NCBI GenBank assembly: GCA_965216875.1
Contig: OZ244207.1
Location: forward strand, 3,392,001 to 3,456,000
Direction: 5' to 3'
From: Rubripirellula sp.
GTDB taxonomy: Bacteria > Planctomycetota > Planctomycetia > Pirellulales > Pirellulaceae
Length of the DNA: 64,000 nucleotides
In this document: one piece after another, positions 48,432 through 57,274 of the stretch
Layout of the letters: the number at the start of each line of letters is the position of its first letter
Numbering within the stretch: the first letter of the stretch is position 1
The notes under the pieces: generated by a model
Told to the model about the DNA's origin: nothing
The model's input: the letters and a program-made list of their open reading frames with translations, nothing else
Database searches by the model: none
Program-made: the position numbers and the translations under genes

Positions 48432-48627
48432 GATTCGCAGTCGCTTCTATCTTGCCCATTTTCAACCGGGCACATCCGGTCTTGCCACGATAGCGTTAAT
48501 TGCGAACACTTAGGTAACGGACATCGGCTGAGTCGACTCTGTGGCGGCTCTCGGTCTGTGTTCGTGACAACCTATCGACAACATTTGTTGAATCATCGTG
48601 CCAATCCACGCGTCCGAAAGACAACGC

Positions 48628-49266
48628 ATGAATTTTCCTATGGCTCACGACATCGTGGCTAATGAACTGGCGAGCAGCCATTCCTACCAGAGCTACCAAC
48701 GACAGCGACAGTTGACCCTGGGCGACCTGTTGCTGGAAAACCGGATCGTCTTTTTGCAGGGCGAGATTCACTACGCGAACGCAAACGACGTGGTGATGAA
48801 GTTGCTGTATCTGCAAAGCGAAAACCGCCGCAAAGACATTCACTTCTACATCAACTCACCGGGCGGAAGTGTCACTGCGACCCTTGCGATCTACGACACG
48901 ATGCAAATGCTCTCGTGCCCTGTCGGCACCTACTGCGTCGGCGAAGCCTGCAGTGGCGCGGCCGTGTTGTTGGTCGGCGGCACCAAAGGCAAACGCTTCT
49001 GTCTGCCCAACAGCCGCGTCATGATGCACCAACCCATGGGTGGTGTCGGCGGTCAAGTGAGCGATATCGAAATCCAAGCGGCCGAAATGTTCCGCTACCG
49101 CGATGTGCTGAACGAGATCATCAGCAAGCACAGCGGTCAAACTGTCGACAAGATCGCCAAGGACACTGACCGTGACTTCTTCCTGGGTGCTCAAGAAGCC
49201 AAAGAGTACGGATTGGTTGACGACATCCTGGTCAAACCACCATCCGACGAAGAAGACGACGATTGA
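48628..49266 (+). CDS. clpP: ATP-dependent Clp protease proteolytic subunit (paralog 1)
   Basis: [33 protein letters not shown]. Start at 48628 or 48640. Confidence 0.93.
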   Translation: MNFPMAHDIVANELASSHSYQSYQRQRQLTLGDLLLENRIVFLQGEIHYANANDVVMKLLYLQSENRRKDIHFYINSPGGSVTATLAIYDTMQMLSCPVGTYCVGEACSGAAVLLVGGTKGKRFCLPNSRVMMHQPMGGVGGQVSDIEIQAAEMFRYRDVLNEIISKHSGQTVDKIAKDTDRDFFLGAQEAKEYGLVDDILVKPPSDEEDDD

Positions 49267-49330
49267 TATTGGTCCGTCCTGAAGACTGCCAATTAACCAC
49301 CAGACAACTCTTTGCACACCCAGAACCATC

Positions 49331-49921
49331 ATGCCAATGATTCCCTACGTCGTCGAAAAAAGCGGTCGTGAAGAACGCGTTTACGACATTTACAGCCGAC
49401 TGCTGAAAGACCGAATCATCTTCCTTGGCCAACAGGTCGATGATCACATCAGCAATGCGTTGGTGGCTCAAATGTTGTTCCTGCAATCGGACGACCCCAA
49501 AGCCGACATCCACCTTTACATCAACAGCCCCGGTGGCAGCATCACTGCGGGCATGGCGATCTATGACACGATGCAATTCGTCTCGTGTGACGTCGCAACC
49601 TATTGCATCGGCCAAGCCGCTTCGATGGGTGCCGCACTGCTGACCGCAGGTGCCAAAGGCAAACGATTCGCTCTTCCAAACGCACGAATCATGATTCACC
49701 AGCCGCTCGCAGGCATGCAGGGCACCGCTGCGGAAGTCGAGATTCACGTCGAAGAACTGCGTCGAATCAAAAAGAAGATGAACGAGCTGATGATTGAACA
49801 CACCGGTCACTCGCTCGAGAAGATCGAACAAGACACCGATCGTGACCGCTTCATGTCGGCCGAAGAGGCCTGTGAGTACGGCTTGATCGACAAGGTTGTC
49901 AGCAAGTCAACCGACGGCTAA
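49331..49921 (+). CDS. clpP: ATP-dependent Clp protease proteolytic subunit (paralog 2)
   Basis: [41 protein letters not shown]. Confidence 0.96.
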
Positions 49922-49930
49922 ACGTTCGCA

Positions 49931-50020
49931 TTGCCGCAACTCGGTTGCGGCAAGTCACAAACGAATGAACCACACGATTCGGCCGCCATGCATTGATTCG
50001 CATGGCGGCCGATTTATGTT
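49931..50020 (+). terminator. Two hairpins after the clpP pair; the second is a likely intrinsic terminator
   Basis: TTGCCGCAAC-TCG-GTTGCGGCAA (49931-49953); TCGGCCGCCATGC-N8-GCATGGCGGCCGA followed by TTTATGTT. Confidence 0.7.
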
Positions 50021-50058
50021 AAGGTTCCACAGGTTTTCAAAACCATCCTTTGGTAGTC

Positions 50059-50131
50059 GCCCCCTTCGTCTAGCGGCCCAGGACGCCGAGCTTTTCCGCT
50101 CGGAACGCTCGTTCGAATCGGGCAGGGGGTA
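50059..50131 (+). tRNA. Atypical tRNA-Glu-like RNA (anticodon ambiguous; CCA not encoded)
   Basis: Acceptor GCCCCCT/AGGGGGT+A; D-stem GTCT/GGAC with loop AGCGGCCCA; T-arm GCTCG-TTCGAAT-CGGGC; anticodon arm CCGAG-CTTTTCCG-CTCGG; variable region AAC. Confidence 0.85.
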
Positions 50132-50234
50132 CTCCGTGGCGACACAGGACAGTAGCTGACGTCCACAATCCTCAGTCGGGGAGGACGTGCCGCAGATTGG
50201 AGTTTACAACGCCGTGAAGTGAAGTGCGCACCAA

Positions 50235-50377
50235 CAATCACCCGCTCGCTTGCGGGAGGGTCGGACGCAAAGTCCGGGGAGGGTTTGAGCCCTACAATCA
50301 GGCCTTCACCGGGCCTCTGAGTCTTGCCTCGTTCCCACGGTCCTCCGTGGGAACTCACTCTTTGCCGCTTCGCGGCG
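50235..50377. repeat. Family G half element (50235-50287) and family C-like element (50327-50377)
   Basis: The first is a near-exact reverse complement of about 57223-57274. The second matches the 48152 and 48303 copies. Confidence 0.82.
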
Positions 50378-50472
50378 ACACTCCGTTATTGGCCCCGTCG
50401 CCGGATCCGCGTCGCTGTCGCTACATAATCCGGCCTACGCGTTTCACATCCTCCTCGCCCGTACAACTTGCC

Positions 50473-52158
50473 ATGATGTCCGATTTCGCTCGCCATTGTC
50501 TCGTTGTCATCGCGGCGATGGTGCTTGGCAACTCACTTGCCGCGTCATCCGCAAATGCCCAGCCGACAGCGCGACCCAATTTTGTCTTCGTGCTCACCGA
50601 CGACCAGTCCTACGGGATGATGGGATGCGATGGGAACGCGGTCACAAAAACACCGAACTTGGACCAACTCGCCAAGGACGGTGTCTTCTTTGATCGCGCG
50701 TACGTCACCAGCGCGATCTGCACGCCAAGTCGCATTTCAATCTTCCTCAGCCAGTACGAACGCAAACATGGCGTCAATTTCAACTCGGGCACGAGCGTCG
50801 CGCCACAGGCATGGGCCAAGTCGTATCCGGTGATCATGCGAGACGCTGGCTACTACACCGGTTACGTCGGCAAGAACCACGCTCCGATTGGCCCAGGCGG
50901 GTACGACAGCGGGTTGATGGACAAGTCGTTTGACTACTTCTACGCCGGCCATGGCCACATTTGGTTTTACCCCAAAGAAGCTCACGACATCTTCAAGGAC
51001 GCAAAAGACGACACTCAAATCGAAGTGGTCGGCGAAGGTGCGGAAGATTTCCTGTCAAACGAACATCGACTCAAACGGGCCCTTCACTTTCTTGACCGGC
51101 GCCCAACCGACAAGCCGTTCTGTTTAAGCATTTGCTTGAACCTGCCTCACGGTGCCGGCACCAGCCGCATGCAGATGCGTGAGGGCGACGATGAAATCTA
51201 CAAAACGCTTTACCGCGACATCGAGATCCCACTGCCCAAGCACTACATCGCGAAAGACGACATCAAACAACCGAAACTCCCGGCAGATGTCTTGAAGGTC
51301 GAGGAACGGCAAACGGGTTACAACTACGTCGACCAACCCGCGACACTCAAGGAACGAATGATTCGACAGATGCAGGCGATGACCGGCATCGATCGCATGA
51401 TTGGCAATCTGCGCAGCAAACTTCAAGACGAAGGGTTGGACAACAACACCGTCATTGTCTTCTGTTCCGACCACGGCCTCTTTATGGGGCAACATGGTCT
51501 TGGCGGCAAAGCGCTTTGCTACGAACAAACGACACACGTGCCGATGATCATTTTCGATCCACGCAAACCCGCCAACCAGCGTGGACGACGTTGCAAGCGA
51601 CTTGTCCAAACCATCGACATCGCCCCCACGTTGTTGGCACTGGCCGGGATCGAAGCACCGCGTGAATTCCAAGGCCGGTCGTTACTCGGCCTTCTCGAAG
51701 GGAGTGATGACGCGGTTCGCGAGTACCTGTTGACCGAGAACCTTTGGTCCACGCACTTTGGCAATCCGCGCATCGAATCGGTTCAAGACGAACGCTGGAA
51801 ATACATTCGCTACTACGAAAACAACAACTTCCCTGCGTCTGTCAAAGTCCGCGTCGCCAAAGAACTTGGTATCCCGGTCAACAAGATGCTCTATGGAGTC
51901 CACGATGGAGCAATCGCTGTCTATCGGCACTACGTCGAATCGTCGCTAGCGGGCGAAGAGCCGGTATTCGAAGAATTGTTTGACCTGCAAAACGATCCCG
52001 ACGAATCACACAACCTCGTCGACCAGCCGAATGTGGCTCGTGAACTCGTGCGACTGCGCGAAGCATGGAAGGCCAAATTGACCGTCGCCCGGGGAACGGG
52101 AAAACCGGCCGTATTGCGATGGACCGCCGACAGTCACGAAGGCTACCGTTCGCGGTAG
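50473..52158 (+). CDS. Formylglycine-dependent sulfatase
   Basis: Signal peptide; RPNFVFVLTDDQ, CTPSR, GKNH, SDHG, ELFDLQNDPDE. Confidence 0.93.
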   Translation: MMSDFARHCLVVIAAMVLGNSLAASSANAQPTARPNFVFVLTDDQSYGMMGCDGNAVTKTPNLDQLAKDGVFFDRAYVTSAICTPSRISIFLSQYERKHGVNFNSGTSVAPQAWAKSYPVIMRDAGYYTGYVGKNHAPIGPGGYDSGLMDKSFDYFYAGHGHIWFYPKEAHDIFKDAKDDTQIEVVGEGAEDFLSNEHRLKRALHFLDRRPTDKPFCLSICLNLPHGAGTSRMQMREGDDEIYKTLYRDIEIPLPKHYIAKDDIKQPKLPADVLKVEERQTGYNYVDQPATLKERMIRQMQAMTGIDRMIGNLRSKLQDEGLDNNTVIVFCSDHGLFMGQHGLGGKALCYEQTTHVPMIIFDPRKPANQRGRRCKRLVQTIDIAPTLLALAGIEAPREFQGRSLLGLLEGSDDAVREYLLTENLWSTHFGNPRIESVQDERWKYIRYYENNNFPASVKVRVAKELGIPVNKMLYGVHDGAIAVYRHYVESSLAGEEPVFEELFDLQNDPDESHNLVDQPNVARELVRLREAWKAKLTVARGTGKPAVLRWTADSHEGYRSR

Positions 52159-52186: not shown

Positions 52187-52302
52187 AACACTCTCCCTTG
52201 GGAGAGTCGGGCTCTCAGGCCCGGAGAGGGTTTGTTACTTGCAGAGATCGTGCCCTCCCCGGACTTTAGCGTCCGACCCTCCCGAAAGCGGGAGGGTGAT
52301 TG
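52187..52302. repeat. Family G element (116 bp, multi-hairpin, imperfect inverted arms)
   Basis: AACACTCTCCCTTGGGAGAGTCGG...CCCTCCCCGGAC...GGGAGGGTGATTG; second copy at 57163-57274. Confidence 0.88.
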
Positions 52303-52314
52303 TTTTTCACGCGG

Positions 52315-57162: not shown

Positions 57163-57274
57163 AACACTCTCCCTTGGGAGAGTCGGACTCTAAGGCGCAG
57201 AGAGGGTTTGTTCTGTAACATTATTCCCTCCCCGGACTTTGCGTCCGACCCTCCCGCAAGCGGGAGGGTGATTG
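57163..57274. repeat. Family G element (112 bp)
   Basis: Direct copy of 52187-52302 with a divergent centre. Confidence 0.88.

What the first reader, a model, noticed from the sequence alone, without database searches (positions are those of the whole stretch)
50059..50131. tRNA-Glu-like RNA with an intact core but a re-registered, non-canonical anticodon arm
Seen: U8, A14, G15:C48, G18G19, the TTCGAAT loop and all four stems are intact, with Glu-type D-stem pairs U11:A24, C12:G23 and U13:G22. The 22 nt between the D- and T-stems match the length of a normal tRNA-Glu but pair differently: CCGAG/CTCGG with an 8-nt loop CUUUUCCG (or 6 bp with a 6-nt loop), no purine at 37, and only a 3-nt variable region. 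The anticodon could be read as UUU, UUC or a UUUC quadruplet. Established: 8-nt loops can cause +1 frameshift suppression, and Glu-tRNA also feeds non-ribosomal chemistry (HemA in heme synthesis, LanB dehydratases). Inference: full stem pairing argues against random decay, so this may be a dedicated non-decoding or recoding tRNA. Caveat: a homopolymer error (TTTT for TTT) would restore a 7-nt UUC loop, though C37 and the short variable loop would remain odd.
Basis: partly seen in the sequence, partly recalled or inferred. Interest (0 to 1): 0.78.

Follow-up and report, generated by a model that had tools for sequence, protein, structure and literature searches.

The report
Glutamate tRNA with a remodelled anticodon loop
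This is a real, strongly conserved glutamate-type tRNA gene whose codon-reading loop has been reshaped in many related bacteria, which suggests it now mainly does something other than ordinary protein synthesis.

Summary
Window 50059-50131 (+) encodes a full cloverleaf with an 8-nt loop CUUUUCCG, a 3-nt variable region and no purine at 37.

It is not a sequencing error. Contigs from three runs in three studies carry the same letters.

It is the ortholog of this bacterial family's tRNA-Glu(CUC), and in 39 loci it also lies behind clpP-clpP.

I parsed 160 such tRNAs from 158 genomes.
- 62 genomes in 14 genera have non-canonical loops of 7-10 nt, in 28 distinct forms.
- In all 35 distinct loops, canonical ones included, only U-C is invariant, read as positions 35-36 counted from the 3' side.
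- The stem covaries (233/235 cells paired) and the rest of the tRNA is nearly invariant, although flanking DNA is saturated.
- Variant loops occur almost only where the T-stem predicts weaker EF-Tu binding: 61 of 90 weak T-stems against 1 of 70 tight ones.

A canonical tRNA-Glu(UUC), one GluTR gene and a GluRS with the C36-reading arginine are present.

Best reading (about 0.5): a Glu-accepting tRNA largely withdrawn from decoding, possibly serving haem synthesis. The quadruplet-decoder reading is disfavoured. Function is inferred, and no RNA data were found.

The parts
50059..50131 (+). tRNA-Glu(CUC)-derived tRNA gene, 73 nt through discriminator A73; no CCA is encoded
   Evidence: ARAGORN; structural parse; cloverleaf is the minimum-energy fold; orthologs in 158 genomes
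50059..50065 (+). Acceptor stem 5' strand GCCCCCU. It pairs with 50124-50130 (AGGGGGU) and has a G1.U72 wobble.
   Evidence: pairs 2-5 are invariant C-G in all 95 unique sequences
50068..50084 (+). D arm with Glu-type pairs U11:A24, C12:G23 and U13.G22, plus A14, G15 and the GG of the D loop
   Evidence: most D-arm columns (positions 10-15, 17-19 and 22-26 of the first sequence) are invariant in alignment A1
50086..50090 (+). Anticodon stem 5' strand CCGAG. It pairs with 50099-50103 (CUCGG).
   Evidence: in the variant class 233 of 235 cells are paired, against 51-53% when the 3' strand is slid by one base; G002 has G-C where G000 has A-U
50091..50098 (+). 8-nt anticodon loop CUUUUCCG. C50091 and G50098 can form a sixth pair. 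U50095-C50096 is the invariant U35-C36 counted from the 3' side, and C50097 stands at position 37.
   Evidence: the letters are confirmed in contigs of 3 runs
50104..50106 (+). 3-nt variable region AAC; canonical orthologs have 4 nt, mostly AAAC
   Evidence: all 9 genomes with a 3-nt variable region have 8-nt loops
50107..50123 (+). T arm GCUCG-UUCGAAU-CGGGC with pairs G49-C65, C50-G64 and U51.G63. Predicted EF-Tu binding is -9.7 kcal/mol.
   Evidence: using Table 2 of PMC3239215 (read)
49979..50012 (+). Terminator-like hairpin (13 pairs, then a T-rich tail) after clpP2, 46 nt upstream of the tRNA. It is context and not part of the tRNA.
48598..49921 (+). clpP1 (48598-49266) and clpP2 (49331-49921), the conserved upstream neighbours that establish orthology by synteny
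   Evidence: Pfam PF00574, E 6e-73 and 1.3e-85; tblastn finds both ClpP genes beside the tRNA in 39 loci

Best explanation
The gene is the vertically inherited ortholog of this family's second glutamate isoacceptor, tRNA-Glu(CUC). For decoding, that isoacceptor is an auxiliary tRNA.

In part of the family it keeps everything needed to fold as an L-shaped tRNA and, by inference, to be charged by a discriminating GluRS. These kept features are the acceptor stem, the Glu-type D helix, the T arm, a paired anticodon stem and U35-C36.

The features that matter to the ribosome and EF-Tu have been given up or changed: the 7-nt loop, U33, a purine at 37, the wobble base, a tight-binding T stem and, in one genus, the 1:72 pair.

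I therefore read it as a Glu-accepting tRNA that has largely left ordinary decoding and is kept for a use that does not read the anticodon. GAA and GAG would then be read by the canonical tRNA-Glu(UUC).

The most likely consumer is glutamyl-tRNA reductase, the first step of haem synthesis, which competes with EF-Tu for Glu-tRNA.

Shown here: the gene is real, it is orthologous, it is under purifying selection, the stem covaries, U35-C36 are invariant, and variant loops go with weak T stems. Inferred: charging by GluRS, poor use by the ribosome, and the identity of the consumer.
For: 1. Orthology. BLAST of 61 relatives and of 401 family genomes, followed by parsing, shows the same acceptor, D and T arms with the canonical loop YUCUCAG in most genomes. 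clpP1-clpP2 lies directly upstream in 39 loci, which include both canonical-loop and variant-loop species.

2. Purifying selection. Within genera the 120-nt flanks are 15-60% identical. The tRNA outside the anticodon arm is 49-52/52 (up to 54/54) identical in nearly all pairs of the tRNA's own clade; g144 and G318 fall to 42-47/52. G000 against G002 has flanks at 24% and the body at 51/52.

3. The anticodon stem is maintained by compensation. In 47 unique variant sequences 233 of 235 cells pair, with 3-5 pair types per position. When the 3' strand is slid by one base, 51-53% pair.

4. In all 35 distinct loops the 4th and 3rd bases from the 3' end are U and C. In the 62 variant genomes the neighbouring positions vary:
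- position 37: C 39, G 15, A 7, U 1
- position 34: U 41, C 11, A 10
- position 33: U 42, C 12, A 5, G 3
- loop length: 7 nt in 30, 8 nt in 23, 9 nt in 8, 10 nt in 1

5. A reader for C36 exists. The genome has GlnRS, one bacterial GluRS and a GluQRS. The GluRS has Arg aligned with Thermus thermophilus Arg358. That residue makes GluRS discriminate at position 36 (PMC2978374, introduction, read).

6. Using the additive T-stem model of PMC3239215 (Table 2), predicted EF-Tu binding is -9.7 kcal/mol for this tRNA and -10.8 for the genome's tRNA-Glu(UUC). The bacterial Glu(CUC) class mean is -10.3. Of 70 tRNAs with tight T stems (<= -10.1) 1 has a variant loop, against 61 of 90 with weaker T stems. 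By genus or family group, 0 of 48 all-tight groups hold a variant against 14 of 20 groups with a weak T stem.

7. Ten genomes of genus g101 have A at position 34 (AUC). If such a tRNA decoded, it would put Glu at Asp codons. Eight g101 genomes also have a U1/U72 mismatch.

8. A canonical tRNA-Glu(UUC) and one GluTR gene are present. clpP genes prefer GAA (GAG fraction 0.21-0.30) despite a GC3 near 0.7. This fits the UUC tRNA being the main decoder.

9. Precedents.
- Staphylococcus tRNA-Gly for cell-wall synthesis and a weakly EF-Tu-binding Helicobacter pylori tRNA-Glu (PMC3239215, section 12).
- GluTR and EF-Tu compete for Glu-tRNA (PMC4284751, passages).
- tRNA-Glu(CUC) is a frequently gained and lost auxiliary tRNA (PMC4041420, passages).
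Against: No RNA run was found, so expression, CCA addition, charging and EF-Tu binding are all untested.

Variant loops are conserved within genera across saturated flanks (CUUUCCG in 8 g84 genomes, UUUUUCGG in 4 g144 genomes, CUCUCCG in 5 g3 genomes). The loop is therefore not drifting freely. Something reads it, and that could be the ribosome.

G000's own loop keeps U33 and UUC when counted from the 3' side. The yeast mitochondrial tRNA-Thr shows that an 8-nt loop can decode triplets (PMC7609411 passage; PMC4267643 abstract).

The predicted weakening of EF-Tu binding is modest: 0.6 kcal/mol below the class mean and 1.1 below the UUC tRNA. That is below the 1.3 kcal/mol outlier threshold of PMC3239215, and the model was measured with E. 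coli and Thermus EF-Tu.

The link between T stem and loop is confounded by descent, so it reflects few independent events. Twenty-nine tRNAs combine a weak T stem with a canonical loop.

The sample is biased. I fetched the best BLAST matches first, and only 145 of the 401 family genomes were parsed.

GluRS of E. coli also uses positions 34 and 37 and the missing residue 47 (recalled), and these are altered here.

No gene neighbour or co-occurring enzyme points to a consumer. GAG usage in clpP genes does not differ in the expected direction: 0.30 in variant genomes against 0.21 in canonical ones.
Confidence: 0.5

Rival explanations
1. It is still a working, minor decoder of GAA/GAG. The odd loops (C37, an extra base 5' of the anticodon) are tolerated or mildly adaptive variants, and the tRNA reads triplets as the 8-nt-loop mitochondrial tRNA-Thr of yeast does.
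For: Counted from the 3' side, G000 keeps U33-U34-U35-C36. In 42 of 62 variant genomes U stands at position 33, and 52 of 62 have U or C at position 34. Variant loops are conserved within genera over saturated flanks, as expected if decoding still selects them. An 8-nt loop decodes triplets in yeast mitochondria (PMC7609411 passage; PMC4267643 abstract).
Against: Loops of 9 and 10 nt occur in 9 genomes. Twenty of 62 variant genomes lack U33, and 40 of 62 have a pyrimidine at 37. Ten genomes have A34 (AUC), which would misread Asp codons as Glu. Variant loops are found almost only with T stems predicted to bind EF-Tu weakly. A U1/U72 mismatch occurs in 8 genomes.
Confidence: 0.25
2. It is a natural +1 frameshift (quadruplet GAAA/GAAR) decoder used for programmed recoding.
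For: ARAGORN reads a four-base anticodon. Eight-nt loops are the classic feature of frameshift-suppressor tRNAs (recalled; see the review PMC5009743, search listing only). The loop CUUUUCCG recurs in three genera with different stems: g1, g15 and g84.
Against: Orthologs in the same and neighbouring genera have 7-, 9- and 10-nt loops and different candidate 'quadruplets'. A congener (G001) has a canonical loop. No conserved recoding target would fit such variation. I did not search for target genes.
Confidence: 0.05
3. It is a tRNA-shaped RNA that is not aminoacylated and acts through its shape. Examples are a processing or termination signal behind the clpP operon, a decoy, or a partner of a lineage-specific loop-binding protein such as an anticodon nuclease or a modification enzyme.
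For: Loop sequences are conserved within lineages but differ sharply between lineages, which is a pattern seen in co-evolving partners. A closing 32:38-type pair covaries. The tRNA sits 46 nt after a strong terminator-like hairpin.
Against: The position behind clpP is not kept in genera g84, g3, g144 and g6, yet the tRNA is conserved there. The invariant U35-C36 and the Glu-type D helix are most simply explained by recognition by GluRS. No candidate partner gene is linked to it.
Confidence: 0.13
4. It is a pseudogene, a redundant tRNA-Glu(CUC) in the course of decay.
For: tRNA-Glu(CUC) is dispensable for decoding and is often lost (PMC4041420). Rfam's tRNA model no longer reports this gene.
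Against: Flanks are saturated even within the genus (24-28% identity), while the body outside the anticodon arm is 50-51/52 identical. The anticodon stem changes only by compensating pairs. A very recent inactivation in this one species cannot be excluded.
Confidence: 0.05
5. It is a sequencing or assembly error, with TTTT in place of TTT.
For: The loop contains a homopolymer.
Against: The letters are identical in contigs of three runs from three studies, one of which is a slightly different strain. The same 8-nt loop is found in 5 other genomes of 2 other genera, and removing one T would still leave C37 and a 3-nt variable region.
Confidence: 0.01

Closest known systems
Non-proteinogenic tRNA-Gly of Staphylococcus (glycine donor for the peptidoglycan bridge) and the weakly EF-Tu-binding second tRNA-Glu of Helicobacter pylori (PMC3239215, section 12, read)
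   Same: It is an extra isoacceptor beside a normal one. Its T stem is predicted to bind EF-Tu less well than the class norm (-9.7 against -10.3 and -10.8). The rest of the tRNA is conserved, so the aminoacyl-tRNA would be spared for a non-ribosomal use.
   Different: Those tRNAs keep a normal 7-nt anticodon loop, and the Staphylococcus ones are known (recalled) to lose the GG of the D loop. Here the GG is kept and the anticodon loop itself is remodelled. The predicted weakening of EF-Tu binding is smaller than the 1.3 kcal/mol outlier threshold. No consumer enzyme is identified.
Glu-tRNA(Glu) as substrate of glutamyl-tRNA reductase (C5 haem pathway), with specialised isoacceptors in Acidithiobacillus ferrooxidans (PMC4284751, passages read)
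   Same: It is a Glu-type tRNA with the Glu-specific D helix. One GluTR gene is present. GluTR and EF-Tu compete for the same aminoacyl-tRNA, and that organism has isoacceptors that differ in which pathway they serve.
   Different: In A. ferrooxidans the specialised isoacceptor is the one excluded from GluTR, and none is reported to be excluded from translation. No anticodon-loop remodelling is described there. Use by GluTR is not tested here. That GluTR ignores the anticodon is recalled from Randau et al. 2004, a paper that is not held.
Frameshift-suppressor tRNAs with 8-nt anticodon loops (sufD, sufA6, sufB2, sufJ; recalled)
   Same: The anticodon loop has 8 nt, with an extra base next to the anticodon.
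   Different: Those are laboratory mutants of decoding tRNAs with a purine at 37. This is a natural gene with a pyrimidine at 37, and its orthologs have loops of 7-10 nt with no conserved quadruplet.
Yeast mitochondrial tRNA-Thr(UAG) with an enlarged 8-nt anticodon loop (PMC4267643 abstract; PMC7609411 passage)
   Same: It is a natural, conserved tRNA with an 8-nt anticodon loop.
   Different: That tRNA decodes triplets and reassigns CUN codons, and it has its own dedicated synthetase recognition. Here nothing points to a reassigned codon, and the loop length is not fixed.

Membership tests
tRNA (Rfam RF00005; canonical cloverleaf) | 7-bp acceptor stem, D arm with A14/G15/GG, T arm with a TTCRANT loop, 5-bp anticodon stem | tested here: met
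   ARAGORN cloverleaf; structural parse; minimum-energy fold
tRNA (Rfam RF00005; canonical cloverleaf) | Score at or above the family's gathering threshold (29 bits) | tested here: not met
   No RF00005 match at gathering score, at E<=10 or at E<=1. Canonical orthologs score 48.6-58.2 bits and the 8-nt-loop ortholog of G016 scores 53.1.
Elongator (decoding) tRNA | 7-nt anticodon loop with U33 and a purine at 37 | tested here: not met
   The loop has 8 nt and C stands at position 37 in either register.
tRNA-Glu identity (substrate of GluRS) | U35 and C36 | tested here: met
   They are present when counted from the 3' side of the loop, and invariant in all 35 distinct loops. GluRS has the Arg aligned with T. 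thermophilus Arg358 (its role is stated in PMC2978374).
tRNA-Glu identity (substrate of GluRS) | Augmented D helix: U11:A24, U13.G22 with A46, and no residue 47 (E. coli identity set, recalled) | tested here: inconclusive
   U11:A24 and U13.G22 are present and invariant. The variable region has 3 nt where 4 are expected, so the 13:22:46 triple cannot be assigned.
tRNA-Glu identity (substrate of GluRS) | Aminoacylation with glutamate | not testable with these tools
   Needs a charging assay or charged-tRNA sequencing.
Ortholog of the family's tRNA-Glu(CUC) | Same body sequence and same genomic position as canonical tRNA-Glu(CUC) genes of relatives | tested here: met
   73-95% identity to the nine orthologs compared, against saturated flanks. 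clpP1-clpP2 lies upstream in 39 loci, including canonical-loop G001, G247 and genus g28.
Non-proteinogenic tRNA (Staphylococcus tRNA-Gly type) | A second, normal isoacceptor for translation is present | tested here: met
   tRNA-Glu(UUC) lies at genome 2980285-2980358 and scores 61.5 bits with RF00005.
Non-proteinogenic tRNA (Staphylococcus tRNA-Gly type) | Weak binding to EF-Tu | tested here: inconclusive
   The prediction is -9.7 kcal/mol, against a class mean of -10.3 and -10.8 for the UUC tRNA. The difference is below the 1.3 kcal/mol outlier threshold of PMC3239215. It is a prediction only.
Non-proteinogenic tRNA (Staphylococcus tRNA-Gly type) | A dedicated non-ribosomal consumer enzyme | not testable with these tools
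   One GluTR gene exists, but nothing ties it to this tRNA. There is no LanB N-terminal domain (that search had no positive control).
Frameshift-suppressor / quadruplet-decoding tRNA | 8-nt anticodon loop | tested here: met
Frameshift-suppressor / quadruplet-decoding tRNA | The extended anticodon is conserved among orthologs, as a programmed recoding role would require | tested here: not met
   28 variant loops of 7-10 nt. Congeners carry CUCUUCCG and the canonical CUCUCAG.
Frameshift-suppressor / quadruplet-decoding tRNA | Genes that need a +1 shift at the cognate four-base codon | not tested
   No search for such genes was made.

The most novel reading that the evidence does not exclude
A whole branch of this bacterial family has turned its spare glutamate tRNA into a dedicated non-ribosomal glutamate carrier. 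Repeatedly and in different ways, the anticodon loop was rebuilt so that the synthetase still finds U35-C36 while the ribosome and EF-Tu no longer use the tRNA well. This would uncouple haem synthesis, or another Glu-tRNA-dependent reaction, from translation. It would be the first case in which a cellular tRNA is specialised away from decoding by remodelling the anticodon loop itself.
Probability: 0.3. Interest if true: 0.85.

Novelty: new variant of a known kind. Interest (0 to 1): 0.7.

Why it matters
tRNAs kept for work outside translation are known from very few cases, and there the anticodon loop stays normal.

Here a conserved chromosomal tRNA shows the opposite pattern in at least 62 genomes of 14 genera. 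The body is frozen, the stem is paired and covarying, and the loop is rebuilt with only two bases untouched.

If the tRNA is charged but not used for decoding, it gives a natural system for three questions: how Glu-tRNA is divided between protein and haem synthesis, which loop features GluRS truly needs, and how a tRNA leaves translation.

There is also a practical point. Gene finders mislabel these genes. ARAGORN calls orthologs Asn(att), Asp(atc), Lys(ttt), Met(cat) or '???', and Rfam misses some. Automatic annotations and codon-reassignment screens of these genomes can therefore be misled.

In the four literature searches aimed at this I found no description of it.

Tried and rejected
- RNA evidence. 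The look-up of sequencing runs listed no RNA holder, so expression could not be examined.
- Gene context. The downstream neighbour in the window is a sulfatase followed by a ZnuA/ABC transporter. In genera where the tRNA is not behind clpP, I scanned 16 flanking frames. Eleven had no Pfam match. The rest were unrelated: DNA polymerase III delta, Mal s 1-like, a protein kinase, a class II aaRS and a glycosyltransferase. No partner was suggested.
- LanB route. PF04738 had no match in the genome, but it rang in none of the 14 control genomes either, so this is not a valid negative.
- Codon usage. The GAG fraction in clpP1+clpP2 is 0.30 in 31 variant-loop genomes and 0.21 in 8 canonical-loop genomes. 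Genome-wide in G000 it is 0.38. This does not separate the readings.
- Promoter scan. No sigma-70-like site lies between the clpP2 terminator and the tRNA. This is uninformative for an organism with unknown promoter rules.
- Alignment. The MAFFT alignment A1 puts the seven unique sequences with a 3-nt variable region out of register. I therefore counted pairs from my own structural parse and did not use the count of structure pairs. That parse required at least 4 of 5 anticodon-stem pairs, at least 6 of 7 acceptor pairs and at least 4 of 5 T-stem pairs. The two loci that failed to parse, L031 and L176, both lie at contig ends.
- Tree. The ClpP1+ClpP2 tree (39 rows, quick method, 8 of 34 inner branches starred) is too weak to count independent origins. 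It does place canonical-loop G001 and G247 inside a starred clade whose other six members all have variant loops.
- Papers. Randau et al. 2004 on tRNA recognition by GluTR is not held.
- Earlier notes. The scan held no earlier notes for this genome or sequence.
- One search used too strict a cut-off and missed the Thermus chain. One search repeated the search with the C-terminal half.
Full report
**1. The observation**

The window holds one tRNA by ARAGORN, at 50059-50132 on the + strand. It is reported as 'tRNA-???' with the four-base anticodon tttc.

Read from the sequence it has:
- acceptor stem GCCCCCU/AGGGGGU, with G1.U72, and discriminator A73
- U8
- D arm GUCU-AGCGGCCCA-GGAC, with pairs U11:A24, C12:G23 and U13.G22
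- anticodon stem CCGAG/CUCGG
- loop CUUUUCCG at 50091-50098
- variable region AAC
- T arm GCUCG-UUCGAAU-CGGGC

RNAfold returns the cloverleaf as the minimum-energy structure, with a sixth C-G pair closing a 6-nt loop.

Rfam's general tRNA model does not report the gene at any threshold tried. It scores the genome's tRNA-Glu(UUC) at 61.5 bits and canonical orthologs at 48.6-58.2 bits.

**2. It is not an error**

Three sets of contigs carry the same letters:
- Run X1, depth 100, has 0 differences over 49700-50276.
- Run X5, a metagenome from a different study, has 3 substitutions and one deletion over the same span, none in the tRNA.
- Run X7, from a third study, has 0 differences over 49964-50114.

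All three carry the four T. No RNA run was listed.

**3. What it descends from**

The window is part of a single 8.26-Mb contig. ARAGORN finds 99 tRNAs and a tmRNA in it.
- One canonical tRNA-Glu(UUC) lies at 2980285-2980358.
- No chromosomal tRNA-Glu(CUC) of the usual kind is present.
- Fifty tRNA genes (rows 2 to 51) lie in a few dense runs at 591000-632638. They include two more Glu(UUC) and one Glu(CUC) of quite different sequence.

BLAST of the odd tRNA against 61 relatives and 401 genomes of the same family, followed by parsing of the fetched loci, shows what it is. It is the counterpart of the family's tRNA-Glu(CUC), whose usual anticodon loop is UUCUCAG or CUCUCAG and whose variable region is usually AAAC.

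In 39 loci the two ClpP genes lie directly upstream, as in the window. This group includes species with canonical loops (G001 of the same genus, G247, and genus g28) and species with odd loops. Orthology therefore rests on both sequence and position.

**4. The pattern across relatives**

I parsed 160 tRNAs of this type from 158 genomes, covering 55 genera of the family and 13 other families of the order.

This is not a random sample. I fetched the best BLAST matches first and then 34 weaker partial matches. Only 145 of the 401 family genomes were examined. Two loci at contig ends, L031 and L176, could not be parsed.

Sixty-two genomes in 14 genera have a loop that is not a standard 7-nt N-U-Y-U-C-R-N loop. 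All 13 tRNAs from other families are canonical.

There are 28 variant loops. Thirty genomes have 7 nt, 23 have 8 nt, 8 have 9 nt and 1 has 10 nt. Examples:
- CUCUCCG
- CUUUCCG
- CUUUUCCG (six genomes in genera g1, g15 and g84, with different stems)
- CUCUUCCG (the congener G002)
- UUAUCCG and UCAUCCA
- CUUAUUCGG
- CUUUUUUCGG

Counted from the 3' end of the loop, the fourth and third bases are U and C in all 35 distinct loops. The neighbouring positions vary freely.

The first and last loop bases can pair in 34 of 35 loops, with C-G, U.G, U-A and G-C all seen. None of 5000 shuffles reaches that number. This supports a sixth stem pair.

**5. Selection**

Flanking DNA is saturated even within genera, at 15-60% identity in forced global alignments.

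The tRNA outside the anticodon arm is 49-52/52 (up to 54/54) identical in nearly all pairs of this tRNA's own clade. In genus g144 and for G318 it falls to 42-47/52.

The anticodon stem pairs in 233 of 235 cells of 47 unique variant sequences, with three to five pair types per position. When the 3' strand is slid by one base, only 51-53% pair. Between G000 and G002 the stem differs by one double, compensating change. A decaying pseudogene is therefore excluded for the lineage.

The variant loops are themselves conserved within genera across saturated flanks: CUUUCCG in eight g84 genomes, UUUUUCGG in four g144 genomes, and CUCUCCG in five g3 genomes. The loop is not drifting freely. It changes in steps and is then held.

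**6. Link to EF-Tu**

Schrader and Uhlenbeck (PMC3239215; Table 2 and section 12, read) give additive contributions of T-stem pairs 49:65, 50:64 and 51:63 to EF-Tu binding, together with class means. Glu(CUC) has a mean of -10.3 kcal/mol with sd 0.5.

Applying their table gives three results.
- The odd tRNA scores -9.7 and the genome's tRNA-Glu(UUC) scores -10.8.
- Of 70 tRNAs with tight T stems (<= -10.1) one has a variant loop. Of 90 with weaker T stems 61 do.
- No group in which all T stems are tight (0 of 48) contains a variant, against 14 of 20 groups with a weak T stem.

Several different weak T stems carry variants: GCUCG/CGGGC, GCUCG/CGAGC, AGAGG/CCUUU, AGGGG/CCCUU, AGUGG/CCAUU and GGAGG/CCUUC.

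The caveats are real. These are predictions from E. coli and Thermus data. The shift for this tRNA is below the paper's 1.3 kcal/mol outlier threshold. Relatives are not independent. Twenty-nine tRNAs have a weak T stem with a canonical loop.

Eight genomes of g101 also have U1 opposite U72.

**7. Who could still read U35-C36**

The genome encodes a GlnRS (604 aa), one bacterial-type GluRS (537 aa) and a GluQRS (319 aa).

In the alignment with the Thermus thermophilus GluRS chain, an arginine of the GluRS stands opposite Arg358. That residue decides discrimination at position 36 (PMC2978374, introduction).

A discriminating GluRS that reads C36 is the simplest explanation for the two invariant bases. 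This is an inference.

One glutamyl-tRNA reductase gene is present. No LanB N-terminal domain was found, but that search had no positive control.

**8. Reading**

Four parts of the evidence go together:
- the conserved body
- a paired and covarying stem
- the kept U35-C36
- the altered ribosome-facing features (loop length, U33, purine 37, wobble base, T-stem pairs, and 1:72 in one genus)

They are best explained by a Glu-accepting tRNA that has largely left decoding and is kept for a consumer that ignores the anticodon.

GluTR is the obvious candidate. It competes with EF-Tu for Glu-tRNA (PMC4284751). From memory of Randau et al. 2004, which is not held, it recognises the tRNA core and not the anticodon.

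tRNA-Glu(CUC) is an auxiliary tRNA that is often gained and lost (PMC4041420). The strong GAA preference of clpP genes, despite GC3 near 0.7, fits the UUC tRNA being the main decoder.

I give this reading about 0.5, and the specific GluTR link about 0.3.

**9. Rivals**

- Continued minor decoding of GAR codons (0.25). This fits the within-genus conservation of loops and the U33-UUC arrangement in G000. It fits poorly with the 9-10-nt loops, with the missing U33 in 20 of 62 variant genomes, and with A34 in ten genomes.
- A programmed quadruplet decoder (0.05). This is disfavoured by the lack of any conserved extended anticodon.
- An uncharged structural or regulatory RNA (0.13). This cannot be excluded without charging data.
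- Pseudogene (0.05) and sequencing error (0.01). Both are largely excluded.

**10. Novelty**

I made four searches of the held literature:
- expanded anticodon loops in bacterial genomes
- 8-nucleotide anticodon loop
- tRNAGlu with Planctomycetes
- non-canonical tRNA genes and 8-nt loops

I also read passages of two relevant papers. None describes this.

The earlier notes of this scan hold nothing for this genome. They do list unverified reports of phage-borne Glu-type tRNA look-alikes with closed anticodon loops in other genomes.

I classify the finding as a new variant of a known kind: a tRNA specialised outside translation.

Noticed in passing
G000:C1:591000-632638 (outside the window): Fifty tRNA genes (rows 2 to 51 of the ARAGORN list), all on the minus strand, lie in a few dense runs at 591000-594748, 606699-608012 and 628016-632638. 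They cover most amino acids and their sequences are unlike the housekeeping tRNAs. For example, the Glu(CUC) and one of the two Glu(UUC) genes there have an ATCGAAA T loop. This looks like a transferable tRNA array of the kind described in PMC8421152 (search listing only).
   Followed up: partly
window 50224-50293 and 50400-50438: Two short dispersed repeats lie just downstream of the tRNA. blastn-short finds 146 hits in the genome for the first (117 of them at least 40 nt) and 119 for the second, including copies at window 52253-52304 and 57226-57274. Summed contig depth there rises to tens of thousands. The repeats overlap the 5' end of the long frame 50224-52158, so the sulfatase gene probably starts later; its Pfam domain begins at residue 118.
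   Followed up: partly
G000:C1:3282034-3282109 (outside the window): ARAGORN lists a tRNA with anticodon CTA, labelled 'tRNA-Pyl', which would be an amber-reading tRNA. It also lists a tRNA-SeC at 7784436-7784530.
   Followed up: no
window 49928-50017: Two consecutive strong hairpins follow clpP2. On the minus strand they give a sub-threshold Rfam match to the Caulobacter sRNA CC1840 (32.5 bits against a gathering score of 50, E 0.017). The second hairpin is a terminator-like site on the + strand. They are probably just the clpP terminator.
   Followed up: partly
L076 (G412), next to its variant tRNA: In one genus (g144) the variant-loop tRNA lies beside a class II aminoacyl-tRNA synthetase of the Asp/Lys/Asn type (PF00152 with an OB anticodon-binding domain) and a Ser/Thr kinase. 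This was seen in one locus only.
   Followed up: no
loci L040-L042, L048-L050, L059, L060 (genus g101): Eight orthologs have U at position 1 opposite U72, which opens the first acceptor pair. They also have A at the wobble position, and ARAGORN labels them tRNA-Asp(atc).
   Followed up: partly
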